A DNA stretch of 64,000 nucleotides from contig NMRA01000036.1 in assembly GCA_002633005.1 (NCBI GenBank), positions 124,001-188,000 on the forward strand. Reading direction: 5' to 3'. This document shows, piece by piece, positions 4,701-33,300 of the stretch (positions are counted from its first letter, which is position 1; every line of letters starts with the position of its first letter). The stretch is from Phoronis australis (taxonomy: Eukaryota; Animalia; Phoronida). The position numbers were made by a program, and so were the translations under genes. A model generated the notes under the pieces. The model made no database searches. It was given only the letters and a program-made list of their open reading frames with translations, and had not been told where the DNA came from.

Positions 4701-7700
4701 TCTTCTAAGAATGTGACCAGTGGACACTGCTAAGGAATGATATCACTCTTGGCTAGGGTCAGTATAAACTAGTGTAAAAGATCTATGTCTTTCTAGAGAG
4801 CCAAAATGCAATGCTCTATCTTGATTCATCAGCATACACATAGGAAGGAGAGATTATCCTTCAATTATGGAGGGTTAAAACCAATGCTACCACGACAACG
4901 ACTTTGTTAAAGCCTAGTTTGATAGACTTTAGTAGCCTCCTTTTTAACACTTAAAAGCAGTTAGTGGGACCAAAGACAGTATAACTTTGAATTACAAACC
5001 ATTTAATCAATCTTCTGACTTAGCACACAATATGGCAGGAAAGTAAAACTCTATTTTGCCAAATTTTGAAACAAAAGCAACTATTAAGAAAAAAATAAGG
5101 AGATGTAACCTTGGCTTGTTTTGTGTAGACGTCTGAAAACTGCATTCTGTACATTTAACAATATATGTATAAAGGTAAATGACAATTTTAGCAATTATTT
5201 TTGTGCGAAATAAGTGAAGAATTGCAGTATGTACAACATGACAAGCATCAGTAAAGGATATCAGGGGATAATACCAACAGAAAGCACGTCACAGATTGGA
5301 GAAAACCACCCACGAAGCCTCCCAGTCTAGATGGTGACGGAAATCTGAAAACAGAGTTATGTTCATTAACTATTAAAAGCTACTGGTATATTAACAAAAT
5401 CCATACGTCTTATTGGGACATTCCTTCATACATGTTGCCAGAAGATAGAAAGAAATTTGAGAGAGCCTGTCTTTCGCAAACAAATTAAAAGGCAATGTCA
5501 TAAAATGTATTCGAAAGAAAAAAGTCAAACACCATTTGCAAATGGTGTCATGTCTATCAGCACGTCACCACCTTTTTTAAAATAGACAAAACTCGATAAT
5601 AAAGCATTTTTTAAATCTATTTTTGAATTTAAAGAGGTGGACCAACAAAAGTGCCACCAGGGTTGAATGACAATAAACTTCACTTCTTTATAAATTTAAA
5701 AACCAGAACAGTAGCATTCGCAAAAATATACGTAACATAAGAGATGTTCCTATTTTTAATAGTATATTTTTTGCCTTAAGTGACTGATTCTATGTTCTGA
5801 TTGGTTAAATAAAGAAACCATATTTCCCGTTTAAGCACTTACCCACTGACATGACTCATCCTATGACCTTTATCAAAGATTTGTAGTATGCAGATGGCAG
5901 CACCAAACAAACACAGGAACCCCTGGTGGTTGGGTGTGAACACTTTTGACAGAACGATGGTGACGATGAAGTTAACATGAGGCCAGAGTAGCTCACCGTA
6001 CCAAGCCCTGAGAGGGCGATCCGGTTTGAAGTTCATCTGGTCCTGCATTAGGTAGTACTTGTTGAGAGCTGTCATCATCACAAAATGTCTGCAAAATTAA
6101 ACACGAGGGTACACGTGGGTGCAGTACAAAGAAATTAATTGGACAAAGACTCAACATCCACCGTTATGACTGGGAATGAGGAGAATACCCGAAAGTTGGC
6201 AAATGACGATGGTTAGCGTAACAGCAGGAAGTCATATTGGGTCAATTTTGGTGTAAGCAAAATTAGCTGCCATGACAATTGTTCAATTACTGTTGGCATG
6301 CACTATGTAGAGCAAATACATGTGTGAAAAGCCATCCTATATATTACATACTGCTAGATATGTATCCAGTGCATAAGATATGGATAAAAAGGTACTTAAT
6401 AGGCCCATTTAGACAAAAACATTAAGACATGACTCTAATTCTCAGAAATTATTGGAGCATGAAATATTAAAAAATTAACAGGTTTACATACTATTAACCA
6501 TTTTACTAAAAACTGCATGAACAACGATTGAACAAAACATGACCCTATTCTTCAGACAGCTCTTGCGAGCCAAATGCATTGAAGTTTGCAAGGTGTAAAT
6601 AAATTCATAAAATGAAGTTCTTGTGAGTGAAAGATTTTAATTGGCATAATTAAACACCAAGTAGAAGGTACAAATGGAGGCTTAAAGGGGAAAGAAACTG
6701 TTTTTATATCACCTTCAGGAAAAATAGACTGAGGTTCTTGGTTATCTTAGAAATGCGACTCGCAATCGAACGCAGTCTCTGTGAATACAGAATCAAAATG
6801 TGGGCCTTTTGCGGGGCTGTTTACATTTCTTTATTGTTGCATGGATGGTAAACAAACATTAGGACAACACTAGTTAATTAGGAATAACAAATTTCCAAGA
6901 AATTTTGGGATGTTTGCTTATGAAAACCAACAAAATATGCCCACCAGTATCAACTTCAGGCAAGGTCTTGTTTTTTTAAAAAGCCTTTTTTTTCTTAAAA
7001 AGCTGCATGAAGGTGCCAAGTAAGCAAGGCTTGAAATGCAATGATTTGGCAACTGAAGAGTAAAAAATTAAAAATCAAATCCTGCATCATTTTCACTTGT
7101 CTCTGCTGGATTTTCAACTATAAAAAATATCACACCACCGACACAATTTTCACCAAAAAAGGAGACCACAATCAAGTTTTCTATTTTGGCCTAACCAAGC
7201 ATCTATAATAATTTTAAAACAGGTAACTTCAAAAAGTGATTGCTTTCCCCTTGAAATTCTTGTTGAGCAAGGGACATTGTTACAGAGCTAAATAACTACT
7301 TCGACGATCTCTCTCTTGCACACAGATCCAGTGGGTCCACATTCTCTTTGTTTTTCACGTGTAAAATCTTCACACCGCCAGACATCAGTAGTTTCCAGCC
7401 GACCTGTGCATGACCTTTCATACAAGCTACATGCATGGCTGTGTTACCATTCGCATCTTGCAAGTGAATGTCACTTCTCTGGAAAATGACAAGAAAAGCG
7501 AGTGACACCAGAAAAGAGTATCATCAGACAACTGTAACACAACATACCAGCAGCAATGGACAACCTTCAAAGATTCTCTAAACATTCTTAGACAAAAATG
7601 CTGACAAAGAATCCACACCCTGCCTTGAACAGGTTTAGAGACGAGAATGTGACTGAAAATGTGAAGGTGAGCAAAACATTGAAATGGATGTCAAATTGAT

Positions 7701-10700
7701 AATTTTTCATGTTTAGACCATACGACCCATTTCACAGTCACGTTGATGAACTGTGTACACAAAAAGTCCTTAAAATCAAAGTTAGGACATCTTAACTAAC
7801 CACTTTAACTCAAATGGGCCCCAGATCACCAAGTAAGAGATGGAGAGGGACATAGGATTGTTTTTTTTTGCTTTAATGCGACAAATGTGAACTACAATAC
7901 TGTGATACTGCAGCCAAATTGTGAAATAATATATAACTCAAGTATTACATTAAAATAAAATACTCAGTTGAATATATGTGAAAGAACAAGAGTGAAAGCT
8001 TCTGTATACTAAACTGGAATCGCTGTTTCACAAACAAGCAGAGTTATTTCAAATTGTATGCTCGTTACAAAGCACAATAACAACAGATACAGGATGTCTA
8101 AAATTATGAGACACATCTTAAATTCAAGAATAACTCATGAATAAACAATTCTCGCTGGCAGTATAGCCTATATGTGGGAGTTTTCACACACATCTAGTGC
8201 AGGAATACTCATCTGCTCCATTTTGATGACAGCCATTTCAATAGATAACACATTAGCTGGTAAGCTAATGATCTTTCTATGAATGATATCCTTGAGTTCA
8301 GATGTTCACAATCTTTCTATGTTGGCTCTTTTTTAAATATATCAAAATATCAGTTGGAATGTGACTGGCTGTACACTCTTTAGTTTGTAAATTCAAGACA
8401 TAAGTGTGTCCCTTAATTTTGAAAAACCCTAATGATACAACTGGCACCTTTTCGTCTACTATTCACCTTATTTTTTAGTAGATAGTGCACCATGTCTTGT
8501 TGGTCGTGCTCCGATGCAACATGAAGCAAACTCTGCTTTTTATGATTGACATCTTGTAAGCCCAACCCACACACCTCACACAGATATATGATCACGTGAC
8601 TGAAACAAAAACAATCCTCGTAACTTCTTTGACTCATTAAAAACAGATACACCAATCAAATACAATAAAATTGGTAAGGTTTTTGTGCTGATATATATGC
8701 AAGAGACTTGAGCTGTGCTGCATAAAACATCAGAACCAATTCGCAAGATTAGTTCCATTGTTGTATATCATTCAACAATGATAATGTGATGCTAGATAAT
8801 GTTTGACATTACTCCACATCATATAACTGTATGAAGATATTATGTACCTTTGCCACAGAGTTATAAGTGGTCATATTTTAACAAAATGTTCACTAGTCTA
8901 TAAGTTGTCGTATTTAACAAAACGATGACTTCCACAATCAAAAGTAGACACTTGAATGTTCAGAGATAGTGACAAATTAGGTTAATTGATGACAAACAGG
9001 ACAAAAAACATCCTGCACATAATTTCAATTCACATTCTGTTTTACAAACTTTTAATATGAACTCACACGCTACCGCCAGCTGCAGCGTGATGCATGATCG
9101 TCCATCCCTCCTGATCGACGGCCTTGAGATCAGCTCCGTTCTCCTTCATCATGTGCACCAGCATAGTCTTACCGCTCCGACACGCCATGTGTATTGGTGT
9201 CTGGCCCTTGTTGTTTGTGGAGTTGATGTCGGCATTGTTGTCTAGTAACAGCATTACCAGCTGATCCATTCCAGACTCACATATTCGGTGCAAAATGGTA
9301 TTCCCATCGTCATCTACACAATAGAAGAACTGGTCATTAATAGGAATTAGGCAGCAGGGATTTCAGGAAGAGACCTCACCAAGAAAAGACCCCCACGGTG
9401 GCTCTTTTGAAAACAAGGTTTGGAAAATGCCCTATGGGAATTTATTTCCAAACACCAATCGACCGGCCGACTTGTTAGTTTGCCATTTTTGCTGCACCTT
9501 ATTCTGTTAAAGTTATTGTCACACGTAGTTTGAACGGTGGGTAGTTTGCTGTAATTACTTGTGATTTTGTTTGTGTGGCCTTCCGTAGTGATCTTAAAGA
9601 ACCTCCAGGGGTAATTTACATGCCTGGTATAATATGGCTGTAGAAAATATAGCCAACATGTTGTTAAATTCTCAATTTCATATATTTAAAAGCCAATCAT
9701 TAGTAAACAGAAACTTCAGACTTCTCCTATAATAGTAGCCAAGCTGGCGTCTAAATGAAACCTTCCTCTTACAGCAAAATATCCTAAAAACCAGGCATGA
9801 ATAAGGATGCTGCTGGCACCAATGCAAGTTACCCCTGGAGGTTCTTTAAGATCACTACGGAAGGCCACACAAACAAAATCACAAGTAATTACAGCAAATT
9901 ACTCACCGTTCAAACTACGTGTGACAATAACTTTAACAGAATAAGGTGCAAAAATGGCAAACTAACAAGTCGGCCAGTCCATTGGTGTAGAAAGTATCTT
10001 ACACGATGTGTAGCAAGTATCTTACACAATTTATTAACGCGATTGTGGTATTGATGATGAGCCATCACTCTCATGTTTGAAAATTGCTCTGATATTCACT
10101 AAATTGCATCTACAGGATTTCTAGAAGTCTGTCATCAATGATTTTCCCAATCCTTTATTAAAATAACTATAGACCCACATTTTAATCCAGAAGCAAGTTT
10201 TTGATTTAGACCACTTACAGTGAACAGTTATAAAAACCATCTCAACTTGCTCCTTTTCTTATGATAAATGACAAATGATTTCAGGATTGCAAAGATGTGA
10301 CACATTTCACCCTTCTTTTAGACCACATTTGGCGTGTAAAATCACTCGCTATGACAAACAACTTGTAGAGCCTTGTCTAAAGCAACAATGAACTGACAGT
10401 TTTTTGAAGGCCTGACATCACCTCTAATTTGATGAAGCAACAATTTCAGACCAATATCATAATGACAAGAGGTCTAAATTATGAAATTCTTATTTGGGGT
10501 GGAAGGCGGCTTTATAGGCACTATGTTCGTATACACAGCGTGCCAATGGTTAGGTTCTGCTTAATTCCAATTTTATATAGAGTATGGCCAACACACAGGG
10601 TACATACCTTTCTCATTGACAGCTTCTGGTTTCTGTGTCAGTATGGCATGACAGACAGACGACAAGGTCTGCTGCATGGACAGCTGTCTTGCATGCTTGT

Positions 10701-13700
10701 CACAGCCGTCATCCTTGCAACAGCCAGTTGTAGCAGTTTTTGCTTCTAAAATTGAGCAAGATAAATAAGAAATTAACAATAACAACTGGACAAGAAAGTC
10801 CAAAAGGAAACAGAAGTAGGGATGCGTCTGGGCCTCTTACTAAGACATCGTTCACTGCATATAATGCATGAAAATTGTTCTCAAAAGTTGGCCGTCAACA
10901 TCGAAAAAATGTTGAAATGAAATTTGACAGCAAAAAAGAACTTCTAAGGATGATTGAGAGCATTTTAAAGATACAGGAATTTAATAAAACAGGCAATACA
11001 TGAAAGAGTAACTGCAGTTATCCAACATTAAAAAGCATTTCACTTTTAACCAAGAGAAGAATAATCACATTTTTTCAAATTAACAGGGGCAACGCTTGAA
11101 GCAATTTACATAAAATTACCTACATTTAACCAATGGAAAAGTCCCAAACACAAAGATTAGTCATTGGTTCCCACAATAGTTCATTTCCATTTTCAAGAGC
11201 TCTGATCATGTGAATGACCATTAAAGTAAGATCTTACCGTATTCGACTGGGTTAATGGCAAGACTACGTAATAAATTAAATATCTCAAAACTCAGGGGTT
11301 GAGGGTTATAATGAGGCCAGGCATTTAAATGTGATGTTTTTGAAGAAAAGTCGTGAGGGCAATTACGTGAACTAACTTGATCTTGAGTTAATAATCATGC
11401 AGTTGTGCTTAAAAGTGAAAATTTGAATAAGCACGGGTGGTAATTTAGACAAACATGGGTATACAGGTGGTACTGGCGTGAAAGTTTTCACTAACCATGG
11501 TCTTTGTTTTTCCACATGTTCAAAAGTTTATCAACAGAAATGGAATCAGTGATTTTGTCCAGGCTGCCATCTTCATTGGGTTCACCAGGATGGTAAGTCG
11601 TGACATGCTGGGATGAAGGCGCCATCTGTTGTCGATTTATTTGGCGTATAGCTTCAAAGAATTCAGAATTCTCTGCATTTGGTAGTACAGGTCTGAAAAT
11701 AATTCACAAAACAGATTATTTTTTACAATTATAATATCTCCAACATCCCTGTACACAAGATGTGCAAAGGTGATGAAATTTGCATTTTTCACATTGTACG
11801 GTCAACTTCTTTAAAAATTGACAGAATTTGTAGAAAACCACCTAGCTTCATTGAAGTTGTAACGAAACCTCAAGAAGGAACAAGGCAAAAATGCTAAATC
11901 GCTGAAAATAAGCCATAATGATAAAATGCTTTGTGCTGAACTTTCTATTAGATTTTGTCTGCTTTTTTGAAAACAATGCACTTTGATGTTATGGTAAATC
12001 ACAGTTGATGACAACTGTTGTGAAATTACACAGAATAACTTCTAGTAATTCTAAAATTTTCAAACAAGGTATTATACAATACTGTACAATTCATGTGCAA
12101 ATTAGCTTCACAAGAATTTTCTACATTTTATTATAGATTTTTTGAAAACGTTTCTGCAAGAGTTATTACATCTTTCAAAATATTCCATCATTACATACAT
12201 TTCATTTGGTCTCACTATCATTTCAATAACATTGCATCTTTCCCGCTTCTTTGGCTATATTTTGACTTGCATGAAGATTTGTAACTCATTTGGAACAGTC
12301 CAAACAAGTATTCTAACAATTTGAAGAGCACAGAAAGCCAAATCACATGCGGAACTGAGCAACTTCTATCAAAGGCAACATGTTAGTCAGAATAAGAGGT
12401 GCGTCTATGACTATGACCTTGCCTGTGTGCAATTCACAAACAATAGGGTCGTCCAGGATTACACAGTGACACTTGACTCTTGCCGTGTTTACCAAAAATG
12501 CCGCAAACATTTTCGAGCTAGTGGAGTTCCACACTTTATTTGTTGTCTGGTTCTTTACAAGTTTATCTTGGTTGCATTACCAGTAATTTATTCGTCCTTC
12601 CAATGCCAACACAGTGTTACTGCAGTGCTGTGGGCTGCAACTCCGTTGTGAGAAAGTTTGATAAATCAGACAAATACCCGTAGATGCACGATCTGAAATT
12701 CTTTGCCTTCCCAACATCAACGAGAGACACGAAAATGTGCCTGATTTCCAAAACAAAGTCACCGGCTTTCTTATCTCCAATATAAAGAAAAGTTCTATCA
12801 CTGTGCAATCTGGGACAGCCCTACATTAATCCCACCTAATGGCCACTTTTATTCAGAAACCAGATGACTGGCAGCAAAAATCTCTAAGACACCTTTACTA
12901 ATAGTAAAGTGAGCCTCTGAACTGTAACAGTCACTGTAAATGGGAATGAATGGACAGCACTTCCATTTTAGCAACTCTTAATTAATCAAACCCGATTACA
13001 GTACATAGCAACCTTATCAGTTCTCATAACACACACCTCAACAATGATAACAAGGCTAACTAATTTAGAGCATAATGTGTTATCTCAAAAATGTAGGGAA
13101 ATGATACTTGATAAAAAAGACAAGAATATTAATATTTCAGCGACTATAAGTAACGAAGGAATATTTAGACTTTAAATGCAAAGCTATTGAGCTTAGTATA
13201 CTCGCAACTGTTGAGGCCCGGGTTCGAATCCGGCCTTGGTTTCCCGCCAAAATGTTATCTCACTAGTGAGATAACTTTATGGGTTATTACACGGTTGTAT
13301 CTGCCATTTGACGCTAATATTGTGGTATAATTAGTTTTTATTTTGTTGCAACAATACAAGAATATCAGATCGTAGTCATAACATGAGACAACCAAACGAG
13401 AAAAAAAGTTATGATGCAATAATGAAAGGCAAGTGAAAATTAATAAAAATCACAATTTCTGTTGTGCAGTTAAAGATTTATTACCAGCAAATAGCCGATA
13501 TTTAGGTGTCATATCCGAGGACGATTTAAATCAGTATACTTTAAAGGAAAATTGAATGATTTTTCGTGGGGTCCAAAACGACTCATCAAATAACTAGATA
13601 CCACATAATGATTGAGAAAAAATATCACATAGTAAAAAATTATAATACAGATTTCAGAAGTTTCTGTCGCAGTAACTCATTGCTCATTTGCCTATTACAA

Positions 13701-15308
13701 AATCTTAATTTTTATCACTTGTTTAAAGCTGCATTTCACAGTTTAGCTAGTTGAAAAAAAACTGTATTTGGCTTTTTATTCTCATAAAATCAGCCTCATA
13801 ATATTTCTCATCGTGATAGGATTCTATTTTGGTCACCAACAAGGACATCGAAACTACTCATGACTCAAGAAAATGCTTCAACGTTTATTGGGATTGGCCA
13901 ACCACAAACTTGAAAATTCAAAAGTGTTACTATAGTAACAGAAATGCAATCCTGTCACTGTAAGGAAAGTTATGGCATTGGTTTTATGTGAGTAAAAGAC
14001 TGAAGTGCAGCTTTAATGACTGACTTCCTTTTGGTTTGTAAAATCGCTCTGGGTAATTACTTAGGACCCTCAATTCTTCATCGTAGCTTCAATAGCGGAC
14101 TTTTCCTATTGGCGCTCTCTAGAGTAATGAAAGCGCGAAAGCAACTTCCGCTTGATCCCATCTCGGAGCAAAAACCGCTAAAGATTTTTTCTCAAAGCTG
14201 TGATTATCCACTAGACATTCTTGGAAAGGTACATACACACAACCTCCTTCCCAAATTATTTGAAAACATTCATGATTTCTGCATACAGTTCTGCATGCTC
14301 TTTTCATACTTGTTTTTCATGTACTCAACTCCATGACTAAAATTTCAGCCATTTCCTGCCTCTGCCGAATCAAATGTCGACTTCTCTAATCCGAATCCAG
14401 TTTCAAGTATGACCGAAACCACCAAATTATATCAAACCATTCTATACTGTTTTGTACACCTTTTACATATCTTTGGTTTTAATTCATGTATTATATAACG
14501 ACCAGTAAGTATGCAGTATTTTGTAAATTATTTGTATTCTTAGTACTTAGTTTTATCGTAGACAGTTTACATGTAATTTAGTTATCAGGTGGTCTTCATG
14601 CAAGCAGCCTCGAAGCCTCTGTGGGTCTCCTAGCCTTTGTACTATGGTTCTTTTAAGTATATGTATCAACTGTAAAAGTATCATGCCTAAAATAAACTAT
14701 TTATCTAATCTAGATCTATCCAAGGCATCTACGTCAAAAGAATGAGCACGGCTATGTGGTACAGTGACGAGCACTTCCCTCAGACTTGCTTTACTTTAAA
14801 CAAGATGGAATTTGAACTGGGCACCTTTCGAATGTCAATCCAGTGCTCCAATCCACTACACCAAAGACACAGTAGTAAAAAGAAAGCTCCTGATCAGCAC
14901 GAGTGAACCACACACCAACGCTCATATTCTTCAACGAATGCTATAACACACAATGACAGCCCGAAATATCATGCCATTGTTAATAACCTAGAGGTTGGTG
15001 TAAACAGACAAATGTATTTCTGACATGAAGTAAACATAACAATGAAATAACAAAGAATCAAAGCACAAAGCTTACGTAGTTTTGTTGCCTTGACGATGCC
15101 GTTCTGGCACTTTCACCTGTTCAGGCAGAATCAGTCGACCTTGGGCATAGAGTTGCTGGAGAGCTTCTAGTTTTTCAGGAGTCATTGACGCGGATGCATG
15201 AGGGAGCCATGTGTTAGTGACCATAGTGGCACCCTCAGGGAGGCTGAATCCTCCATGACCGTGTCCACTGCAAGGCTGTTCACCATGTGAATGACCATGA
15301 GAAAACAT
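1325..15308 (-). CDS. Ankyrin-repeat DHHC palmitoyltransferase, paralog A (ZDHHC13/17/Akr1-like architecture), 11 coding exons, ~711 aa
   Basis: Exons 15076-15308, 11496-11692, 10608-10745, 9067-9313, 8467-8599, 7300-7478, 5843-6088, 5262-5344, 4618-4719, 3109-3215, 1325-1795 join in frame (2136 nt). Ankyrin motifs (GQTPIHMAC, GNTAMHVAC), TM segments, DPG motif, CVKC...KHCKLCDRCVYEMDHHC. Confidence 0.9.
2241..2611. repeat. Intronic minisatellite, ~6 copies of a 63/57-bp unit
   Basis: Repeating aaaattagtgcaccatggtcagtgggtgacttgatatt... Confidence 0.95.
3109..3215 (-). CDS. Paralog A exon 10, first CxxC of the DHHC cysteine-rich domain
   Basis: GYVTESKQ...ALCVKCE; tttcag/GTAATA. Confidence 0.88.
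4618..4719 (-). CDS. Paralog A exon 9, TM segment and DPG motif
   Basis: VTFLEDGLFNVFIFVCLLPFSIYCFVTMVFGDP; GTAAGT donor. Confidence 0.85.
4720..5261 (-). other. U12-type (minor spliceosome) AT-AC intron
   Basis: 5' ATATCCTTT, branch-like TTCCTTAGC ending 9 nt before the terminal ...CCAC boundary; frame preserved. Confidence 0.85.
5262..5344 (-). CDS. Paralog A exon 8, TM segment, followed by AT-AC U12 intron
   Basis: 83 nt, FPSPSRLGGFVGGFLQ; followed by ATATCCTTT. Confidence 0.85.
5843..6088 (-). CDS. Paralog A exon 7, TM segments
   Basis: ttttgcag/GTAAGT; HRMSHVS parallels HRIEHVS in paralog B. Confidence 0.9.
6686..7251. mobile_element. Non-autonomous DNA transposon, TTAA-type target (Kolobok-like)
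   Basis: ttaa|AGGGGAAAG ... CTTTCCCCT|tgaa. Confidence 0.6.
7300..7478 (-). CDS. Paralog A exon 6, ankyrin repeats
   Basis: 179 nt; DANGNTAMHVAC. Confidence 0.9.
8467..8599 (-). CDS. Paralog A exon 5, ankyrin repeat
   Basis: 133 nt, same as paralog B exon 3; shared YL(C/H)EVCG. Confidence 0.92.
9067..9313 (-). CDS. Paralog A exon 4, ankyrin repeats
   Basis: 247 nt, same length and phase as paralog B exon 2. Confidence 0.92.
9452..9988. mobile_element. Foldback element/MITE with ~160-bp inverted arms
   Basis: 9452-9614 is the near-perfect reverse complement of 9829-9988. Confidence 0.85.
10608..10745 (-). CDS. Paralog A coding exon 3 (...AILTQKPEAVNEK)
   Basis: ttttag/GTATGT; end homologous to paralog B exon 1 (NNPDAVNQK). 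Confidence 0.85.
11496..11692 (-). CDS. Paralog A coding exon 2 (PVLPNAENSEFFEAIRQINRQQM...)
   Basis: ttttcag acceptor, GTTAGT donor, open frame, phases 2->1 bridge exons 1 and 3. Confidence 0.65.
13186..13250 (+). mobile_element. tRNA-derived SINE head
   Basis: B-box GGTTCGAATCC; no intact cloverleaf. Confidence 0.45.
13727..14012. mobile_element. MITE with TTAA target-site duplication (Kolobok-like)
   Basis: TTAA|AGCTGCATTTCA ... TGAAGTGCAGCT|TTAA. Confidence 0.65.
14801..14870 (-). mobile_element. tRNA-derived SINE head
   Basis: Reverse complement reads tggtgtagtgg (A box) ... agttcaaattcc (B box). Confidence 0.5.
15076..15308 (-). CDS. Paralog A coding exon 1 (His/Gly-rich N-terminus MFSHGHSHG)
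   Basis: ATG at 15308, donor GTAAG, phase 2 matches next exon. Confidence 0.75.
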
Positions 15309-18165: not shown

Positions 18166-18242
18166 GAATTAAACATGGTTGCCTTGTTGCAATTGGCGAA
18201 TGTTGGTCTTCTTGTTTTGTGAACTTTTGTACATTTTTGGCC

Positions 18243-21300: not shown

Positions 21301-24300
21301 AAGTGTGATGTGATGTGTTGGTTTGCAGGGTTTGACTAATCACTAATCGTCACATAATGGAGGTGCCAGGTTATGGGTGGCCATTTATGGAAAAAACATC
21401 AAATTGTCTCTTTTCTACTGGCTTGGATTTTCAGGCTGCACATCCCGTCACTTAAATACTGGCTGGAGTACCCCCCCTTGAAATACTCCAGTGTTTGTAT
21501 GTACATACATACTATGTACGTAAATTATTTAAAATAGAGCTTCTTTTTTGTGAAGAGTTGTGACTCTTGATTAATAGCAAATTCACAGTGCAACAGCATT
21601 CAAATTTGGTCCTAGATAATCAGATAAAGCACTTGAGGACTGTAAGACAGATTTCATTTACTAAATTACATGCGAAGTGGTCTGGAACTAGCTTACCGAC
21701 TGTAATGTGCAAGTAGTTATGCAAAACTAACTCTCAAACTTATATGTACCAAACCTACTGACAAAGAATCTCAGCCCCCTGTAATCTATGTCAAACTTTG
21801 GTCTTCCTTGTCTTCCATTTTGAATAACATCAAGTGGATCATGTGCAATATCAGGGCAGGTGTTCAGACCAGCAGTATCACTGTGAAAATGGTCACTTGC
21901 ATGAAGGAGTGTAGTGCAATAAACTTGCTTGCATCCCTCGAAAGATTGGCTGCGCATGACAAGGCTACATCTTCTGTCCCTGGAACATCCAAGATTCTCC
22001 AAATTAAATGCTCCAACCTATACAGGAATCCCCCGTCGAAGTGTTGTGTTTCTTGAAACTTCTTAAAGTTTCCATTTCAAGAGGATCTAGTCTTGTCGCC
22101 AACTTCTCCAGCGTGAAGTTATCATCAAAGAGCATTATATGCTTACTCTTGCTTATGCGCATGTGCAATATATTAGTTGTGTCATTAGGCTGCCAGAATT
22201 GACAAAACAGAATCGACGAAACTGGATTAAATTCATAAAACGGGATTGAATTCACAACGCGATAGGATAGACAAAACAGGGATGATTTAAAAACAGCATT
22301 GAATTCACAAAACAGGTTAGAATAAACAAAACAGCATTGAGTTCACGATATGGAATCAACAAATATGGATTGAATTAATGCCCAAGATAGGATTGAATTG
22401 TCGTACAATTGGCATTGAGTTTATTAAATGGAGTTTAACATTCAATTTGATGTTTTTTTTTGCAGAAGTGGCCCCCCATTGCAGATGAAATCACATACAT
22501 TAAAATGCCTCCATCTTCCTTAAATTTTATCAAGCTGACTGAACACTGAATTACTTGTCACTACTCTGCTAGCACCATCTAGTGTGAACCATCCATACTA
22601 GGTCATTCAAATTGTCCCATAGATTTGAGGCTTTGTTGGTTAATTGATCCATGAACATGTTTTTCTATTTTTTCCTGGTGACTGAACATCAAAACAGCTA
22701 GTGAATATTGCAGTTTGCATAAACAGTTGACAATTTAAGCTTTTTCTGTTCACCAAAGCTCATTTTGCAATCCTTTCACAACAAAACCTACATCAAAATG
22801 TATTACGTCCAACCGTGTGTACGTTTATTTAACTCTAACTTTCGAATGACACCTCTCTGCCCATTTTATTCTATTCAAACACAGTCTGATGAGCATTTCA
22901 TAAATCTCACATCACTCTCGCATGTTTGTAACAATAAAGCAATCAAACATTGGTTTCAAAACAGTATCCGCATGCCAGTTGCTTATTATTGTTTGGTTAA
23001 TAAAGTGGCATCAGAGTGTTGATACAAAGTTTTGAAGGTCATGTACTTTTGATGTCCTCAAGTAGGGTTTCTGGGCCCGGTCTCCAATCTTTTTAATCGA
23101 AATGGAACTCGAAATTAGGTTTGGCATTTTCTACTCTACTTTTGGGTGAAATCAAGATAAGTGTGTATTATTCTATGCTCGATTACATAATAATAATTTA
23201 TTGCCCTTAGTTCACAGTTTGTAAACCCAATATTAACGCAATAAGTTCGAGTTTGAACTCGAAATTTCGAGTTTTTACTCGAGTTTGTAGCATGAATATA
23301 AGGGTCTTCAAGGGCAAACTTGAACTAGAAACTCCTATGCATAAACTATAATGTATTCGAGCATAGTCTGATAACCAATTATCTTAAGTTCGCACAAAAG
23401 GAGCAGAGAAATTGCCATAAATAGTTTCGAGTTTGTTTCGAGTACAAAAATTAGAGACCGGGCCCTGGTCTAAAAGTCATTTAGATTAATGTGTTAATCA
23501 GAATTGAAATCACCTTACCTATGCAAACTGCAACCCTTTGTTTTTGTAATATGGTGGAATGGCAGAGCTAATTACACAAGAGAAAACAATGGACCAAATG
23601 GAGTTCATTGATTGTTTCAAAGGGAAGGCTCATTGCCACCGACGCGATTATTCTTGTATAAGTTTGAGATTTTGGTTTAACCTAAGTAGTGCTGTGTAGG
23701 TCTTTAAACTCATGGCACTGTTGGCATTATTTCTCTATTACAGGATGGAATGGCTTCACACCTCTCCACAAAGCGTGCTTACGTGGCGATATAAACATTG
23801 TTCGAATCCTCTTGGTATTCGGCGCAGATCCAAATTCCAGAAACAACAACGAAGAAACTGCTTTCATGTACGCATGCAAGCGGGGAAATCCAGACATCAT
23901 GCATGCCTTGCTGGATAAGGGAGCTGATTTGGGAGCCGTTGACAATCTGGGCCGGGGAGCTATGCATCACTCTGCTCATGGTGGAAATGTGTGAGTTTTG
24001 GAGCCAAATATGAACGGGTGAAACTGCTGTTTTNGGGGGGGGGCGAATGGCAAGAGATTGGCTCAGTAGATTCTGTTTTACTGAAGTTGAAAATAAATCC
24101 AAGTGTTTACATTTGTTATTATTCAGTGTTTCTTTGAAGAAATCTTGTGAGGTTTACTAATTTTTTAATTGGATTAAGTGGCTTGTTTTCCAAAGATATA
24201 ACCTAAAAATCGCCTCACTGTTTTTGTTATACTTGCAACTACCATTACATTGATCAATAGCTTTGTCAATTATAATAATGGCTAACAAACAATTTGGTTT

Positions 24301-27300
24301 CCAAAGCTGCATGAGTGTCCTTTTAACTTGCTTTTTTCTGAAAGACAGGAGGCAATGATGTCCTGCGGGAATTTCAGCCATGATTACCGTTTTTGTTCAC
24401 AGCTATGGCCTCCATTATTTGCATGAGGTTTGCGGTGTTCCTTACGACTGGTGCGATAATCAGAAGCAGACAGCTCTCATGATAGTGTCGATGCATGGTC
24501 ACATGGAGGCGCTGAAGTACTTGCTGAAGGGCGACGTAAGTTTCGCTTTAAAAGCAGGTTTATGCTAGCACAGGGATATGCAACCATTGAATGTTTTTGA
24601 ATGAAAGCAGTTGCTTGGCTGAATCTCTTACACAGTTGATGTCTCATGATATTGATCTAATCTGAATATACAACTTCAAATTCAATCTTAATTGCACATT
24701 TTTCTTCTTTTAGTATTAAGTCAAGATAACTGTCTTTGATGTTGGGCTCAGATGGCCAATAAACCAAGCTCGCATTCAGTGTCTGAGTTCTTAATTTCTA
24801 CGTTGTGGCATCATCAGTGGTAAAGTTACTCTAAATTTGTCTATCAGGGCCCTCAATCCCTCAATTGTGGGGTTGAATATCGGCCCTATTCCTCTCTGAC
24901 AAATATTAAAAAATCATGTGAAATTCCTCTCATAAGGCCCATAAATTCATCTCAAGTGATTGAAAAATTCCCCTCGAGGTTCAAATCATCAGTAATTCAA
25001 ACCGGTGGCAATTTGAAAGAGTGCAAAATGTTAGTTTTGGCTACCTGAGGCAGAGTCTGTGAGGGCTTGCAACATGGTGGGGGTGCTATTAATGGTGATC
25101 GGAAGGTAGAATTTCCTCCTTGCACCAAAAAGTTCCCCTCCCAGAAGGCACAAGCACCTTTCCCCTAGGATGAATGAGGGTCCTGTTTACACTGACCAAG
25201 CACAAAATGAGACGCCAATCTGGAGTTCTTAATAAAATTATAACGTAAAAATCAACTTGTGATTGATAGAGTTGCAGATCAGAGATTAGATTTCAGACTT
25301 TGACGTTACACAGCTAATGATGTGAAGATGGTGGAATAACTCTCAGAAGCACGTCAACATTAAAAGGTTGCGTTTTATTGATACTTCAAGCTGTAGATTA
25401 CTGCCTGCTGTGCAAGGATAGTATAATTATTCTTAGTTTTATTTTGACTTGTTGAGACTTTGATCTCGTTCAAAACATTTACCTTTGTTTTGCCGCAGGG
25501 TTACTGACATCAGAATTCTATTGCTGAACATTGATTACAAACAGCCTAAGTTAGAACTGTGTAACCAGATCTCGCAACATTAAGTTCTGTTTTCAAAAAC
25601 TGGGCCTGCATTACGCTGATCGTTTTAAAAGAATATGCTTCGTTCTTTTACAGAGGGTTAACATTCATCATGCTGATGCAAATGGTAATACGGCACTACA
25701 CATAGCGGCCTTACAGGGACATCTTTTGGTAGCTTGGTGGCTGGTCGTCAAAGGCAGATGTAAGACAGTGCATGCCAGGAACAAAGAGAGTCTCACCCCA
25801 CTTGACCTAGCGCACAAGACCAAGGATTTAAAGCAAGTATATTTCATAAGAGTTTCTGTCAATTGATGTATGTGACAACCTGGGAATATTTTTTAACCTT
25901 ACCCAAATTAGCTTTGTTATAGGAATATTCTGCTACTAAGTAGTTATTCTCCAACTACTAATCATTGCGGCTTTCCTAGTTATCTTACACAGTGTTAGCA
26001 TTCCTTTCAGTGTCTCACAATGATGTAGCTTGTGGTCAGGCTTTCTTCGCCCATGGTGATTGCACGTATTGGCCGGAATGTTGGCATTTTGCTTCACGTT
26101 ATGCAACGTACCCAAAAAACGCCTGATAGGATGCCTTATTTTTGAGACATGGTCTGGCACGTAAACAAATTGCAGATTCTCGTTGCCTTTAACTGTTGTG
26201 AATGGTCGCGCTAATGGCAGTGGTGCATAAACATTAGAGAGATCCTTGATTGTTGTTATCTTATAATCTTGGCAGCCATCTGTCTCGAGAGACAATGAAC
26301 ATGCGCCCTCTGTCAGTCATTGGTTGGATTGCAGTGTCGCCTGTGGCTAAAAAGTCCGATTCTGGAGTTTCAAGTTCTGTTGCAGTTGTCACGTGTATGC
26401 TTGGTCCTGATCAGTAGGCGCAGAGGTTGCCCTCTGATGCCTTTGTTCTTTAACTAGTGCCTGCTTTTCATCTCTTCTTTTCTTGCTGGTTTGGATGCAC
26501 GACTAGACAGTCGACCTCCACCTGCTGTGATCGGGGGCCACAGCTTCCCAATCTGCGACGTTGATGTTTCCCGTCTTCAGATCACGCTTGCAAACATCTT
26601 TTTAAGGGAGCATTGGTCTTCCTGCAGGTCTGGTTCCAGTGGCAACCTCTCCATAAATGTATCTGGCATTCTCCCATCGTCTATGCGCCTCATGTGGCCA
26701 AGCCAGTGGAGGCACCTTTGGGTAACCATTGTGCACATGCAAGGCAGTACCACCTGGGTTAGAACTTTGTTGTTGGAGTCATGATCCAGCCATTTAATGC
26801 CAAGTATCCTTCTCAGCCAGCACACATGAAAAGTTGAGTCTGCCTTTGACGGGTGTATAGGGGCCATGATTCGCTGCTGTATAGGAGAGTGCTGAAGATA
26901 CAAACCTGGTAGACTTTCATCTTGGGGTTGGTGGTCAGCATACGATTATTGATTGTTTTACTTGGTTCTTATCTAGATGGCGATCTCATTTTGTTCCAGA
27001 TATTACTCAAAAGGCTACTACAGGTTATTTTGTTATATTTATAAATAAAAACATTGGTTTCTTAGTTAATAAGATATTATTTAGTTTTTGTGTTATGTGC
27101 TTTGTGTTTGCTACAGTCTATAGTTTGCAAGTTAAACTGGAGAGACTTCAAACGAACTCTGCCAGATTTTGCCAAGCTTGGCTGGAATTATTTGGCAGTT
27201 TGATGCAACTTTAGTTGTAATGAAATTGATTTTTTGTTGGATTTAAATTAAAGTTAAATATGTCGTTATTTCACCTAGCCACTAATGGTTAATCTGTAAA

Positions 27301-30300
27301 TGGATGTACCGTATTCTCCCTAATAAGCGCCTCAGGTGTTTATTAAGGTGAATACGGTAACTATTGATATTTTAACGCACTATGTGGCACATTTGTTTTT
27401 GGTGTTTTTGAAGACATGGGTGGTTTTAAGCACGTTAAAGTCTTAGACACTCTAACTAAATTCTTGTGGTAATGGGTATCGTTTTATAATTTGATATTTT
27501 TTATTATTTTTTTGTCTCGATTAATGCCTGTGTTTAGCTTTACACCCAACCCTTTTGAAATTAAAACGTTTAACGTTCTAATTTATATCACATTCTTAAG
27601 GTTAAAGCCATTGGAACACTGTAATATTGCAGACACAAGGAGACAGCTGACTTGCTTAAGTGGGTATGGCTGTTCCCTGACACCAACTACCAGCCGCAAG
27701 GTCCTACCATTGGCTGGTACTGGCATTTGTTCATGCCTTCTGTCTGGTTCATCATGGCTGCCGTGCTTTCAAAGGTTCTTGGGCCATTCGTATATGGCGA
27801 GGGTGTCGTGATGACGGTGTGTATGGGATTCACAGTGTTTACCATACTGAAACATCAGCATAGGATCGAGCATGTGTCCAAGTGAGTTGTTTGGGGTTGA
27901 TACACTCAGTAATGTGTAAAGGATTCTCAATATTTACCATTATGTGTGTGTATAATTTATTTGAATGTACCATACTCGTCCGGGTTACGGCCCATGCTCA
28001 GCTTACTGCCCACACCCGAAAATTTCAATTTTTCATTTTTAAGCACCCATGCTCAGCTTACCACCCATCCCCAATTTTTCACGATCGAGACTTCCGTAAA
28101 AGTGTCTGTGCTTCTGTGAACCTTTGTCGCACAAAATTAAGATTCCAAAACGTGCGCAACTCGCTTACCTTTCTGTGACAATCAGTCAGATTTAGTGGAA
28201 CAGGGACCTTGCCTTACTATGGCTGTAAAATACCTGAATTCTCATGCCCTTTACTGAAGGAGACACAATTTTTTCCTTTGACTCACTCGCGGAACTAGTG
28301 TTAGCATGTACTGATCACTGAGACTGCACTTGTCAAATGTATTTCATTTGGTGTAAAAGAACCAGCAAAGCAGTACTTGACAGGGATATCACGCCTGTGG
28401 CCAACCTTTCTGTGATTCCCCGTGACAGTACGTGAAACATAACCACCCTGAGCATTGAAATAAGAAAAGGCATAGTCCATTGTGACGAGCCAACTTGTGT
28501 AGCTGGTTAAACGCATGCTTTTAATGACTTTCACTCCTGACACCAAAATGGAAGCGCCCAACCCAAGACAAGAGCTCAAAACAATCAACTTGTCATTAGC
28601 GCAAGTCGAACATTCTGTCCATGTTCCACCTGGTCAGAACCTTATTTTTTAACTTTTGATTTGCCTGATGACTTTTTACTAGATGGGTTTTTGCTTGGCA
28701 GCTGACCGAGTACCCCCATTGCCTAATAGTAGTATCATCGATTGTTGAGCACGTGCTTTGAACAACAGCACTGTTGGTTTGAACTAGAAAAAGAAATATA
28801 CAATGTAATGTTACATTGTTCAAAGTATTCAATGAGAAGTCAATCATTAGCATGTTCTTGGTTGCCTAAGTGTCCAGCTGGAAGCAATCTTTATACAATC
28901 AAGTTCTTCCCTTAAAGCTCCACTGCGAACTAGCAGAGTCTTGTTTGATCTGTCTTTTCTCTTAAGAAACTTGACCTACTGAACGCACGCCTACCTGTAG
29001 GAATACCTTAGTGCTAAGAGTTGACCAGCAGCGACCGAGGTACGTAAAAACCCAATCACGCTCAGGATCACGACCCCATTATCGTGTGCACAGGCCGTCG
29101 AAGTCCGTTACTTCAATCCCTGACCTATATTTTAACCGATATGCTTGAAGTCTGATGTCAGTGTAGCTCCGTCAGGGTAAAATCGGTCCTCCATGCAGTA
29201 AGCAACAACTCCCGACTTGTCATAAATTTCGATTTTAACTGCCCATGCTCGGTTTACCACCCACCCCCTGTTTTTTTAGATTCCCATTTTAAGCACCCTG
29301 GGCGGTAACGTGGACGGGTACGGTACTTGGTGGACCTTCCATGAATTTTTGTTTTCGTACCGTGTATTTGTCTTGATACGGTCGTGCGGTAACCATTTCA
29401 TTTGACCATGCAATAAAGGGATATTGTGGAGCCATGTGTCACAGTTACTGGTCGTCCTACGCATATTGACCGAAAAGAGAGTCGGTAAAGAAGTGCTATG
29501 ACTCTTTCATATGTTGCATAAATACGTTAAACTACAGGATGTTTGATATCAGTTTTGTGTTATTAGCCTCGGTTGCTGTGCCAAGTATTTTCACTTGGTC
29601 AAATGTATTTACTCAAAGTGAAATGGTAGAGAATGGTAATAGTCACATGATTAGTGAAGTGTAGCAACAAGTGTGTTTTGAGGTTATAAACGCACTGTTA
29701 TGTTAACATTTAGATGTGTTCAAAATCATTCTGCTGACCATTTAACTAAAAAATGTTATGCGTGAATTATAGTATGTTAATGAGGTCTCTTAGTAAAATT
29801 AAGAAATATCAATGTTAAACATTCTAAAGATGCAACCTTTTCAAGATACTCTTACCGCCTCTGTTCACTTAAAACTTCATACAAGGTATTTGACCATACA
29901 CCAATCTAGTTTATGTTTATTCCCAAATGTTTTCAAAATAACCAGAACGAATTCTGGAAATTTCAAAAGAATTTTGAATTTTTGGTTGTTTACTTACAAA
30001 GTAGCAGCCACGGTTAAGTAGCCTAGTGAATTTTACTTTATGAATTTCCACTAAAAACACAAATGCCTACAAGGTTGTAATTTGCAAAATGATTTAGTAT
30101 TTTCCAATTCGCCAAATTTCTGCCAGATCATCCTAGATTGCCACGATGGTGTTTTTTGTGTTCAAATGGAAAATTAGTCTCAAATGGAAAGTTATGAGTC
30201 TTTCGTTGAAAGTACTATGTAGCAACCAATTTTCTCCTCATGCGCACAGGCTCTTCTCCCCAGACAGACGAACACGATTGGGCTCTTCTGATTTTTGTTG

Positions 30301-33300
30301 AACAATTCTGACTTCCGTCTGTTTACTTCCTGAAGTATTTTGAGTGGATGTTGTGGCGACTTCATGGCGACCTGTAATTTTTACCATGTCGCCAAACAAA
30401 ATCTGAGGTTGCAGTGGCGATCCCTTCTGTGTCTTTAAAATAGATTTGTTTACTTGTATTGCATTTTCCTGACATTATGTATGTTCTGTCTGATTTAGAC
30501 CTGAAACGGACATAAATTTTGTTTAAATAATTACTGTGTTGCTATATTGATTTGTTCAATCTTGCATTCAAATTGATCGTGTGATGGATATCATGCATAG
30601 TTATCATTCAAGTCATAATGATGTTAATCTTCTTATTTTATCAATTCTGTACTTTGTTGTGATTTCAGGTGGCCTAACCCTATATATGCTGGATGTTTTG
30701 GAGGCGGATTCATAGGCAGTATTATCATCTTCTATTGGAAAGTTTTTCCCTGTATCCTTTTAAAAAGCCTTAGTTTCAAATTCTCCGTAATCATCATGTC
30801 ACTGGCGGCTTAGGCAAACATTTGGAGGAAGAAAGCAAATTATCGTACTGTACAAAAATTGAAGGTGACGGGAGCAGGCAAGAGCATCACTCAAAGCATT
30901 CTCTGAGGTCACCAAAAAGCAGATGCCATCTTCTTTCCGAGAAATTTATCATTGATAGTCAAATGCTATGAAAGTCACAGTGCAACCATTAGCTATCTAA
31001 TGACAAGAACTCGTCACTTTTCAAAGACATAGCATAATCTAAATGACCATCTCTGATTCATTAAGTTATATCACTTTATTAACTGATTTGGTAGCAATAC
31101 GTACATTATACAAACTATGTTGACATTGATGTTGACATTCAGCATTGAAGTTGAGCTGTCATAAAGTGTTTGAATCCAACAAAAGAACTATATTTATTTC
31201 TCTGGTAATATCGTAAATACTTGTAATTGCTTCAAAACACAATGCATACCTATTTACATCTAAAAATTAGAGGTCTGTTTGTTTATTTACTGAAAATTAA
31301 GCCATCTTCTGGAGATGCAGTATTAAAGCCCATCAGCTGGTAAGGCCATCTTTATACCGTCTGTTTCTTCTTATACCCTACCAAAACTCATCCGCCATGG
31401 ATAGTGCAGTGAGTAATGGTATTATTTTTCATTACTGGGGTGGACACATTTTTATTGCAAGAATACAGAATCTATTTGAACGATGATTGAGAAAATTACT
31501 TTCAATTGTCAGATTAGTTAAGTGTTTTAGTTTTGCCCATATTTTATTGTTAACTGCACAAGGGGATTAAAGCATTTTGATTTATGCTTAATTTGGTCAG
31601 GTGTAATGTTGTTAACTTCAAACCCGAACGGTTGTTGCAGTGTATGTGAATCTAGTGGCAGAAACAACAGTGCATGTGGTCTGATGCACATTAATCAGAT
31701 GAGAACAGGCTTCTTAGCTGGGCCGTTGCATGAAACATCAGAAAATTTTCTTGATTTAGTTGTTAATATAACACATATACACATTAAGACCAAGGTGAGG
31801 AGCTTGAGACCTGACTCAAGGGTCTAGCAGCGGGGTCCAACGAGATTTGAGAACAAGAAGTGGACACTCATCCCTCTAGTCCACCCTGTCCCTTTTGGTA
31901 GATACATTGTTGTTTTAACAGAGCAGTGCTTACTAGATATTTTAAGAAGCCCATTATGTATTTCAAGACAAAAAGAGGTTTTGAAAATGTAAGTAAGTTC
32001 AAAGGTATGATGGTGCATTGCACAAAAAGAATTTCCAAAATTTTATTGTTCTTGTTTTTCTAGTTTTCATTAATGTTGATTTATTTATTGCAAACCATGA
32101 AAACTGCCAAAAGTTGTTTTGTGACATGTTCACTATGCAGACGAAACTGATGATGTTATACAAAAATCTTCTTAATCTTAGTATTTTTGTTGAGAAATTT
32201 GACAATTGAAATCAAACCCCTCTCGGTTATTGCTATTGTGTTAAATAGGTCATGAACTATGGAGTGTTTAGGAATTCATTAACTTGTATTTACCTTAACA
32301 TTTTGTCACAGATATATCTGACAAGTTCCTTATAGTAGGCCCTTTAGTTTTGTTGACACCTGTCACGTTGTATCAGTATTGGCAGCTATTGAAGAGAGAT
32401 CCAGGTAAGACCTGCTTTGTTATGTCATTCAGTTCTACCTTGTCTTTGCAGTGGCCCTTCTTGTGGTGATCTTTAGGTCTGTATGAAACCTGCTTTGTAA
32501 AAATTGTGAAGTTCAGCACTGGTACCGAAATGAATTTCTTCAAGATTGAGTTACTAAACTGACGTTTCACCTGACAGCCACATTCATTATCTCACGTACA
32601 TGTGACATGACTTGTGCAGAAACATTTATTTTACTTACACCAACAAATATCTGAGAGAGGGAATGATTTTAAATTTCATTAGGACTTATTGCCGGTATAC
32701 GAACCCTTGAGAACACCTCCGTGTATCAATTAAGGTAATGATCTTGAGGTGGAAGCAGGATTTGTCACGCCACTTTTGCTCAGAAACAATAGCCATTTTC
32801 CAGGTTTAATAGAAGTCTTAAAATAAATATCCAAACAAATACACCTGTGTCTGCATTGATGCATCCTTATTCACAGTAGGCCAAAGTCAATCACTATTTA
32901 TTTTACTTAGATTTTATTTCTGTGGAGCTCCTTTACTGATGGAGAGCACAAGCCCATGTAGTTGGACTTTGAGGCTTCATCAAAATCACGGGCAATGTCC
33001 AATAGAACAAAATATGATATGTCTAGATACCAGGTTTTAAAATTTCAACCCAACTACCATTTCCATGGACCCAGTGTTTTATCTTGTACACTCCAGAATC
33101 TGGTGAGGGCAGTTGTCACTCTGTGGGATAAATCATGCCAAAAGGAGGTGCATAAGCCGTTTGAGTTTCACCATTTTAAAGTTAAAAAGCTGCAAACAGT
33201 TAGGATGTTTTTGTAGGTGTCATACATGAACACTATGATTTGATTTTTTGTCAGTTTCAAGTCATTTCACCTAGCTAATACTAGGTCACATTCCTCAGAA

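What the first reader, a model, noticed from the sequence alone, without database searches (positions are those of the whole stretch)
4720..32311. One minor-spliceosome intron in two subtypes: AT-AC in paralog A, GT-AG in paralog B
Seen: in both genes an 83-nt exon ends in phase 1 at a U12-type 5' site. Paralog A (minus, 5261->4720) has ATATCCTTT, branch TTCCTTAGC and terminal AC. Paralog B (plus, 30752-32311) has GTATCCTTT, branch TACCTTAAC and terminal AG. Both splices keep the frame into the DPG exon. Established: RTATCCTTT plus a CCTTAAC branch close to the 3' site defines U12 introns, and AT-AC/GT-AG subtype switching is a recognised but uncommon event needing both ends to change. Inference: a subtype switch happened after this local duplication, giving a natural side-by-side comparison. 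The downstream exon is 9 nt shorter in B (93 vs 102), which may reflect a shifted 3' splice site. Standard gene predictors would likely mis-model paralog A here.
Basis: partly seen in the sequence, partly recalled or inferred. Interest (0 to 1): 0.8.

Follow-up and report, generated by a model that had tools for sequence, protein, structure and literature searches.

The report
Ancient minor intron, two end types
Two neighbouring, anciently duplicated lipid-attaching (ankyrin-DHHC) genes share one rare-class intron that RNA reads show is spliced with AT-AC ends in one gene and GT-AG ends in the other; the AT-AC form is likely the original, also found in human ZDHHC13/17, so this is a clear but known kind of intron change.

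Summary
Confirmed. Both motifs sit at the stated coordinates. RNA reads show both splices: B 30751^32312, 6 reads; A 5262^4719, 4 reads with two silent differences at the joint. The introns share phase and alignment column in two head-to-head ankyrin-DHHC genes that are 36% identical.

(1) The duplication is ancient: A groups with bryozoan-type proteins, B with a brachiopod protein, and an A+B clade is rejected. (2) The genes belong to the si:ch211-223a10.1-like sister subfamily, not to ZDHHC13/17. (3) B's 93-nt exon is the family's commonest length; A is the long one.

Human ZDHHC17 has an AT-AC U12 intron in the same column, and ZDHHC13 probably does too. Related loci show every textbook state at this site: AT-AC, GT-AG U12, ordinary U2, and loss. 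So AT-AC is probably ancestral, and B's branch likely switched early. A reversion in A is not excluded.

Subtype switches are known: 36 U12DB clusters, and human ZDHHC9 versus ZDHHC5 differ the same way. This scan also noted an AT-to-GT case in ray PROX2 (unchecked). Verdict: new member of a known kind, interest 0.38.

The parts
1325..15308 (-). Gene A: ankyrin-repeat DHHC palmitoyltransferase, 11 coding exons, 711 aa (15308-15076, 11692-11496, 10745-10608, 9313-9067, 8599-8467, 7478-7300, 6088-5843, 5344-5262, 4719-4618, 3215-3109, 1795-1325)
   Evidence: Open model; Pfam Ank and DHHC; 8 of 10 junctions listed in RNA reads
5262..5344 (-). Gene A 83-nt exon ending in phase 1 (Pro codon + 1 base)
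   Evidence: upstream junction 5843^5344 in 16 reads
4720..5261 (-). Gene A U12-type AT-AC intron, 542 nt
   Evidence: 4 reads skip exactly 542 nt
5253..5261 (-). U12 5' splice site ATATCCTTT
4729..4737 (-). Predicted U12 branch site TTCCTTAGC (one A only, the A9-type variant), 9 nt before the terminal base
   Evidence: A9/A10 variants described in PMC1557818 (passages)
4618..4719 (-). Gene A 102-nt exon ending in DPG; 3 codons longer than the family mode
18243..36270 (+). Gene B: ankyrin-repeat DHHC palmitoyltransferase, about 560 aa. Exons: predicted first coding exon 18243-18354, then 23744-23990, 24403-24535, 25654-25832, 27633-27881, 30669-30751, 32312-32404, 34896-34999, 35814 to the N gap
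   Evidence: first exon from sequence only; 4 of 5 junctions inside 25500-36250 listed in reads; Pfam
30669..30751 (+). Gene B 83-nt exon ending in phase 1
   Evidence: upstream junction in 10 reads
30752..32311 (+). Gene B U12-type GT-AG intron, 1560 nt
   Evidence: 6 reads, cut unambiguous
30752..30760 (+). U12 5' splice site GTATCCTTT
32291..32299 (+). Predicted U12 branch site TACCTTAAC, 12 nt before the terminal base (a second one-mismatch candidate lies 28 nt before the end)
32312..32404 (+). Gene B 93-nt exon ending in DPG; the family's commonest length

Best explanation
Genes A and B share one intron at the same codon and phase, spliced with AT-AC ends in A and GT-AG ends in B; its signals predict removal by the minor (U12) spliceosome, and the GT-AG form likely arose once, long ago, on B's branch from an ancestral AT-AC intron. 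Shown: the motifs, both splices, the shared position, and the same position in ZDHHC17. From established knowledge: U11 reads RTATCCTTT and U12 pairs with the CCTTRAC-type branch site whichever terminal pair is present, so both subtypes splice to the same junction. Inferred history: the intron predates the split between the ZDHHC13/17 subfamily and this sister subfamily. An early lophotrochozoan duplication gave A and B. B's intron changed its first and last base, probably through a single-end intermediate such as AT-AG, without moving either cut. Worm-like relatives inherited GT-AG U12, a bivalve-like lineage went on to an ordinary U2 donor, and bryozoan-like lineages lost the intron. Predicted consequence, untested here: A's splicing depends more than B's on the A-type-selective factors CENATAC and TXNL4B/DROL1.
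For: Splices seen in RNA. All 7 introns shared by the two models fall in the same columns and phases. AT-AC lies outside the A/B group: human ZDHHC13 and ZDHHC17 rows read AT_AC in phase 1 (PMC8280824 supplement 1), and the ZDHHC17 site falls in the same column as A and B under three MAFFT modes. DNA shows AT-AC directly in L059 (62% to Phallusia), L041 and L039. Hemichordate P0009 and mudskipper P0199 models read through the donor as N-I-L, which needs an AT start; the medaka ZDHHC17 model gives the matching D-I-L-F control. GT-AG U12 is seen in 9 loci read (L008, L013, L015, L024, L027, L034, L038, L069, L074) and a U2 donor in L010 (64% to Mya). A gap-free DNA alignment of 8 donors puts every cut after column 83. 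The tree places the A clade beside a clade holding annelids, molluscs, Lingula and B. AT-AC to GT-AG is the direction proposed in the literature (PMC2831892 section 15).
Against: The two deep branches that date the duplication have SH-aLRT 84 only, on a quick LG+G4 tree with long A-type branches, which could pull the A clade outward. The mixture-model tree did not finish. The worm-like GT-AG loci are equally distant from A and B in the last exon (32% each), so their B orthology rests on motif resemblance. They probably come from one close host group and count as one or two independent points. The two other A-type loci with the site on the contig have lost the intron (L049, L065), so AT-AC in the A clade rests on gene A alone. 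A's junction has only 4 listed reads, each with two differences at the joint. U12 dependence was not tested, and intronIC was not run.
Confidence: 0.62

Rival explanations
1. Reversion in A. The switch to GT-AG happened in the lophotrochozoan stem before the duplication. The duplication came later, and paralog A went back to AT-AC.
For: Every lophotrochozoan-like locus other than gene A that keeps the intron starts with GT (10 read: 9 U12 and 1 U2). A-type proteins were found only in bryozoan-like records, unnamed records and weakly a nemertean. Long branches could make the A clade look older than it is.
Against: The tree as built puts the A clade outside the annelid+mollusc+Lingula+B group (84/84). 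GT-AG sites outcompete AT-AC sites in a reporter (PMC8280824 passages). One search for the phrase 'GT-AG to AT-AC' with 'U12-type intron' listed one paper, and I could not read that passage because the tool had closed.
Confidence: 0.2
2. Repeated independent switches. The duplication is lophophorate-level, and AT-AC changed to GT-AG separately in B, in annelids and in molluscs.
For: The forward direction is favoured, and single-end intermediates are viable (PMC1557818 passages). Taxon sampling here is thin.
Against: It needs three events at one site, although only 36 of nearly 1000 U12DB clusters show both subtypes.
Confidence: 0.12
3. Gene A is not really spliced at AT-AC: the joint lies a few bases away or uses canonical GT/AG sites, or the introns are U2-type.
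For: Only 4 listed reads, each with two differences at the joint; a cut shifted by two bases also gives two mismatches. Eleven in-frame canonical alternatives exist. The tables were truncated.
Against: The skip is exactly 542 nt. None of the 11 alternatives gives the observed product (39-60 codons against 61), and none was listed in reads. The shifted cut would have TG..CC ends. The same AT-AC layout recurs in L039, L041, L059 and human ZDHHC17.
Confidence: 0.05

Closest known systems
U12 AT-AC intron of human ZDHHC13 and ZDHHC17 (PMC8280824 supplement 1 rows; mouse Zdhhc13 in PMC5224493 passages)
   Same: Phase 1, ATATCCTTT donor, AC acceptor. The ZDHHC17 site is in the same alignment column, 28 residues before DPG against 29 (B) and 32 (A), with 9 nt between branch motif and intron end as in A.
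   Different: Genes A and B are in the sister ankyrin-DHHC subfamily. B has GT-AG ends. A's branch motif is the single-A variant. The ZDHHC13 position was judged from the short flanks in the table only; no ZDHHC13 protein was aligned.
U12 subtype switching AT-AC to GT-AG (Burge et al. 1998 as cited in PMC2831892; 36 U12DB clusters with both subtypes; fish Syntaxin-6)
   Same: Same intron position, both U12 signal sets kept, only the terminal pair differs. Later conversion to U2 and loss are the known fates, and both are seen here in relatives.
   Different: Published counts are mostly between orthologs. Here both states sit in neighbouring paralogs of one genome, and all four states were found at one site.
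Human ZDHHC9/14/18 (AT-AC) versus ZDHHC5/8 (GT-AG)
   Same: Paralogs of the same enzyme superfamily in one genome with opposite subtypes. For ZDHHC9 and ZDHHC5 the flanks place both introns in phase 2 of a Thr codon 21 residues before the His of GLTGFH (counted by eye).
   Different: A different intron, downstream of the DHHC motif, and the genes are on different chromosomes. The homology is my own reading: HMMER placed gaps differently through a third protein, and I found no paper stating it.
si:ch211-223a10.1 / ascidian ZF(DHHC)-2 ankyrin-DHHC subfamily
   Same: A and B fall inside this clade (99 for 48 rows), with members named from sponge, tunicates, sharks, teleosts, echinoderms, molluscs, annelids and Lingula.
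   Different: No paper in the library names this gene. Most sampled animals gave one member; this genome has two. A has a long N-terminal extension, also seen in the bryozoan-type proteins.

Membership tests
U12-type (minor) intron | 5' splice site RTATCCTTT | tested here: met
   0 mismatches in both introns; 2-7 in the other 15 introns
U12-type (minor) intron | CCTTRAC-type branch site close to the 3' end, with A at position 9 or 10 | tested here: met
   A: TTCCTTAGC, 9 nt before the end; B: TACCTTAAC, 12 nt; one mismatch each to TTCCTTRAY. Criterion from PMC1557818 passages
U12-type (minor) intron | Actually spliced at these ends | tested here: met
   B 6 reads; A 4 reads with an exact 542-nt skip but two silent differences at the joint
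U12-type (minor) intron | Dependence on U11/U12/U4atac/U6atac; presence of these snRNAs in the genome; intronIC score | not testable with these tools
   No genome is held for this window; no knockdown data; intronIC not available
U12 subtype switch between homologous introns | Same codon position and phase | tested here: met
   Column 556, phase 1 in both; gap-free DNA alignment of 8 donors
U12 subtype switch between homologous introns | Direction AT-AC to GT-AG, after the duplication | tested here: inconclusive
   Outgroups are AT-AC. The order of switch and duplication rests on branches at SH-aLRT 84
ZDHHC13/17 (HIP14/AKR1) subfamily | Ankyrin repeats plus DHHC domain | tested here: met
   Pfam Ank and PF01529 in both genes
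ZDHHC13/17 (HIP14/AKR1) subfamily | Groups with ZDHHC17/AKR1 in a tree | tested here: not met
   A and B lie in a separate 48-row clade (99); invertebrate ZDHHC17 and fungal AKR1 group apart. Lingula has both types (P0001, P0341)
Recent species-specific tandem duplication | A and B are each other's closest relatives | tested here: not met
   B is 44% identical to Lingula against 37% to A; AU test p = 2.9e-5; A-type loci in other animals
DHHC palmitoyltransferase | S-acyltransferase activity | not testable with these tools
   The DHHC motif and upstream cysteines are intact in both; activity is inferred

The most novel reading that the evidence does not exclude
Paralog A is a natural reversion from GT-AG to AT-AC, against the accepted one-way decay of minor introns. 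Every other lophotrochozoan-like copy seen here starts with GT. If the duplication postdates the annelid and mollusc splits, A regained the slower, CENATAC-dependent subtype, which would point to selection for A-type control of one of two head-to-head paralogs.
Probability: 0.2. Interest if true: 0.65.

Novelty: new member of a known kind. Interest (0 to 1): 0.38.

Why it matters
The case gives one intron position with the whole proposed life history of a minor intron: AT-AC, GT-AG U12, U2 and loss, with two states side by side in one genome. It also pushes the human ZDHHC17 (and probably ZDHHC13) AT-AC intron back to before the split from a sister subfamily that includes a sponge member. Since AT-AC introns depend selectively on CENATAC in human cells and DROL1 in Arabidopsis (PMC8280824 passages; bioRxiv 2020.10.19.345900 passages), the pair could test whether subtype changes gene control. 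That test is easier in human ZDHHC9 versus ZDHHC5, or with engineered two-base swaps already published for Arabidopsis, which limits the interest. For annotation, gene A needs an AT-AC junction that predictors often miss.

Tried and rejected
Whole-genome search: no genome is held, so the minor snRNAs and further paralogs were not checked. The look-up of sequencing runs listed no RNA holder by shared words; the runs came by species label, and their reads differ from the window at many positions.

A single-protein scan of metagenome contigs found nothing; the alignment-based scan worked. The mixture-model tree timed out. The careful tree and a ZDHHC17-wide read-through count were not run, because the script machine was lost. 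The ESM Atlas gave no usable hit for L041, so L041 and L039 stay unplaced beyond 'this subfamily, not ZDHHC17'. P0049 was a poor bridge to ZDHHC9; P0121 served. tblastn with A's N-terminus did not find B's first exon; it was found by eye.

Rejected: a shifted 3' site in B (B has the modal length). Left open: a 9-nt upstream slide of A's acceptor. A's first 9 exon bases match B's last 9 intron bases at 7 of 9 positions, but A's branch spacing is normal (9 nt, as in ZDHHC17) and this loop varies between about 27 and 32 residues across the family.

The third RTATCCTTT at 51456 was read and not tied to any exon. Loci read and dropped: L007 and L053 (site off the contig), L018 (donor off the contig; acceptor AG), L052 (no introns at all in the part read), L056 and L073 (other DHHC families). 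The L013 row was out of frame and is ignored.

Literature searches: ('minor intron' + ZDHHC17 + ZDHHC13; ch211-223a10.1) found 0 papers; one search found 1. The paper reader closed, so the supplements of PMC10639083 were not seen; they may list this intron for Lingula or other invertebrates.
Full report
Observation. Gene A, minus strand: exon 5344-5262 (83 nt); intron 5261-4720 (542 nt; ATATCCTTT, TTCCTTAGC then 9 nt, AC); exon 4719-4618 (102 nt). Gene B, plus strand: exon 30669-30751 (83 nt); intron 30752-32311 (1560 nt; GTATCCTTT, TACCTTAAC then 12 nt, AG); exon 32312-32404 (93 nt). The donor 9-mer occurs 3 times in the window against 1.63 by chance (23 of 100 shuffles reach 3), so only its placement counts. 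Among 17 modelled introns, these two alone match with no mismatch; the rest have 2-7.

RNA. Three raw RNA runs (about a fifth of each read) and one contig set were laid on 600-16200 and 25500-36250. B's joint 30751^32312 appears in 6 reads with an unambiguous GT..AG cut. A's joint appears as 4717 to 5264 with four letters between, a skip of exactly 542 nt, in 2+2 reads (table 5c). Two of the four letters differ from the window; under the AT-AC cut both are silent third positions. The runs come from other individuals with many differences. No joint using another GT/AG pair was listed there, but depth is low and 3 joints were not shown. Eight of A's 10 junctions, and 4 of the 5 B junctions in range, were listed.

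Genes. A encodes 711 aa in 11 exons. B encodes about 560 aa: 514 aa modelled, a predicted first exon 18243-18354 and an end taken from the duplicated copy. Both carry ankyrin repeats and DHHC and lie head to head about 3 kb apart. They are 36% identical over 507 columns, and all 7 introns shared by the two models fall in the same columns and phases, the U12 intron among them.

Family and age. In a quick LG+G4 tree of 59 proteins, both genes sit in a 48-row clade (SH-aLRT 99) apart from ZDHHC17 and fungal AKR1. Named members include Sycon, ascidian ZF(DHHC)-2, shark si:ch211-223a10.1, teleosts, echinoderms, molluscs, annelids and Lingula. A groups with the bryozoan Watersipora and unnamed P0043 (98), then P0003 (96), then Tubulanus (84). 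B groups with Lingula and P0036 (93) inside an annelid-mollusc group (84). Holding A and B together is rejected (AU p = 2.9e-5; the model shares any long-branch pull). Shared residues and a long N-terminus in the A group, and A-type genomic loci L049 and L065, agree. The duplication is therefore old, though the copies are neighbours. An unchecked note from this scan calls the animal a probable phoronid, which fits.

Exon length. From the interrupted codon to the DPG-type motif, 48 of 90 family proteins have 29 residues like B, and 3 of 90 have 32 like A (counted by eye; redundant set, with 6 rows lacking the motif match). The surplus is in A, at the exon start. An indel in a variable loop or a slide of A's acceptor are both possible; B shows no shift.

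Polarity. Supplement 1 of PMC8280824 lists human ZDHHC13 and ZDHHC17 as AT_AC, with flanks that put the intron in phase 1. The ZDHHC17 flank maps to F-W-N-D|L in a bat ZDHHC17, which aligns to the same column as A and B in three MAFFT modes. Three database models read through this donor: hemichordate P0009 and mudskipper P0199 give N-I-L where correct models have T or S, and medaka ZDHHC17 gives D-I-L-F. All three need an AT start; this evidence is indirect.

Related DNA. A scan of metagenome contigs returned the best 80 of 138 related loci. All 80 were pattern-searched and 22 were read. At this site: AT-AC U12 in L041, L039 and L059 (L059 is 62% to Phallusia; L041 and L039 unplaced). GT-AG U12 in L008, L013, L015, L024, L027, L034, L038, L069 and L074, plus L025 by pattern. 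These are worm-like (best named match Capitella 36%, Lingula 35%), probably one close host group with two paralogs. A plain U2 donor in L010 (64% to Mya). No intron in L006, L049 and L065. Six loci were uninformative. Eight donors align without gaps, each cut after column 83.

Mechanism and history. Shown: position, ends, splicing. Established knowledge: the long 5' motif and branch site, not the terminal pair, define the class (PMC7367187 and PMC1557818, passages); AT-AG and similar single-end forms exist and may be intermediates. Inferred: AT-AC is ancestral, since it occurs in the sister subfamily and in the non-lophotrochozoan members seen. The simplest history (0.62) is one switch on B's branch after an early lophotrochozoan duplication, followed by U2 conversion in a bivalve-like line and loss in bryozoan-like lines. 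Because every other lophotrochozoan-like copy starts with GT and the dating branches are weak, a switch before the duplication with reversion in A stays open (0.2), as do repeated switches (0.12). Predicted only: A's intron is slower and needs CENATAC/TXNL4B. In human cells 92% of A-type against 24% of G-type introns respond to CENATAC depletion (PMC8280824, passages), and a two-base swap removes DROL1 dependence in Arabidopsis (bioRxiv 2020.10.19.345900, passages). L039 looks like a cDNA in which only this AT-AC intron remains; that is one contig and an anecdote.

Comparison with what is known. PMC2831892 (passages and section 15) reports 36 clusters with both subtypes among nearly 1000, and conversions and losses as the usual fates. 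Human ZDHHC9/14/18 are AT_AC and ZDHHC5/8 GT_AG. For ZDHHC9 and ZDHHC5 the flanks fall in phase 2 of a Thr codon 21 residues before the His of GLTGFH (my count). So a paralog pair of opposite subtype already exists in human in this superfamily. I found no paper on this subfamily or this intron outside vertebrates. The library is incomplete, Burge 1998 was seen only as cited, and the supplements of PMC10639083 could not be read. PMC5224493 (passages) confirms a U12 intron in mouse Zdhhc13. An unchecked note of this scan describes an AT-to-GT change in ray PROX2.

Verdict. Real, RNA-supported and well placed in its family: a new member of a known kind. Interest is 0.38 rather than 0.8, because subtype switches, also between paralogs, are known and this one is ancient. 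The extra value lies in the four states at one site and the deep age of the ZDHHC17 intron.

Noticed in passing
window 37001-41055 versus 31742-33306 and 33759-36270, around the N gap 36271-37000: The 3' half of gene B, including the U12 acceptor and DPG exon (identical over 151 nt), is repeated at 96-98% identity across the gap, with no U12 donor seen for the second copy. Probably two haplotypes assembled in tandem.
   Followed up: partly
window 25833-27632 (+): Gene B intron with GC-AG ends (GCAAGT donor), supported by 6 reads; the matching intron in A is GT-AG.
   Followed up: yes
L008:1503, L013:1496 and related worm-like loci: The intron after DPG has a GC donor (GCAAGT or similar) in these loci, whereas A and B have GT.
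   Followed up: no
L039:79-297: A contig that looks like cDNA: all downstream introns are removed but the AT-AC intron is retained.
   Followed up: partly
window 15308 to 18243: Genes A and B are head to head, with predicted start codons about 2.9 kb apart. A-direction reads extend to at least 15709-16200, so a shared promoter region is possible.
   Followed up: no
window 15308-10608 (-): Gene A has about 150 extra N-terminal residues, starting with a His/Gly-rich stretch. Long N-termini also mark the bryozoan-type proteins P0003, P0010 and P0043.
   Followed up: no
window 52906-63136 (-): Several ORFs resemble cadherin-repeat exons; two gave Pfam Cadherin hits below the curated cut-off (E about 1e-4). 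Likely part of a large cadherin gene.
   Followed up: partly
window 43632-47283 (-): Low-complexity Thr/Gln/Ser-rich ORFs (43632-44078, 46116-46466, 47002-47283) that may be exons of a further gene; no Pfam hit for the first.
   Followed up: no
window 17432-17840 / 23071-23468 and 18416-19161 / 20301-21045: Two interspersed repeat pairs (93% and 83% identical) inside or near B's first intron. The first has an internal inverted structure and relatives at about 3338-3729, 35216-35515 and 39918-40307, like a non-autonomous DNA transposon.
   Followed up: no
proteins P0009, P0199, P0389: Mis-predicted database proteins that read through a phase-1 U12 donor show x-I-L right after the site, and the first residue tells AT from GT. 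This could type U12 introns from protein databases alone.
   Followed up: partly
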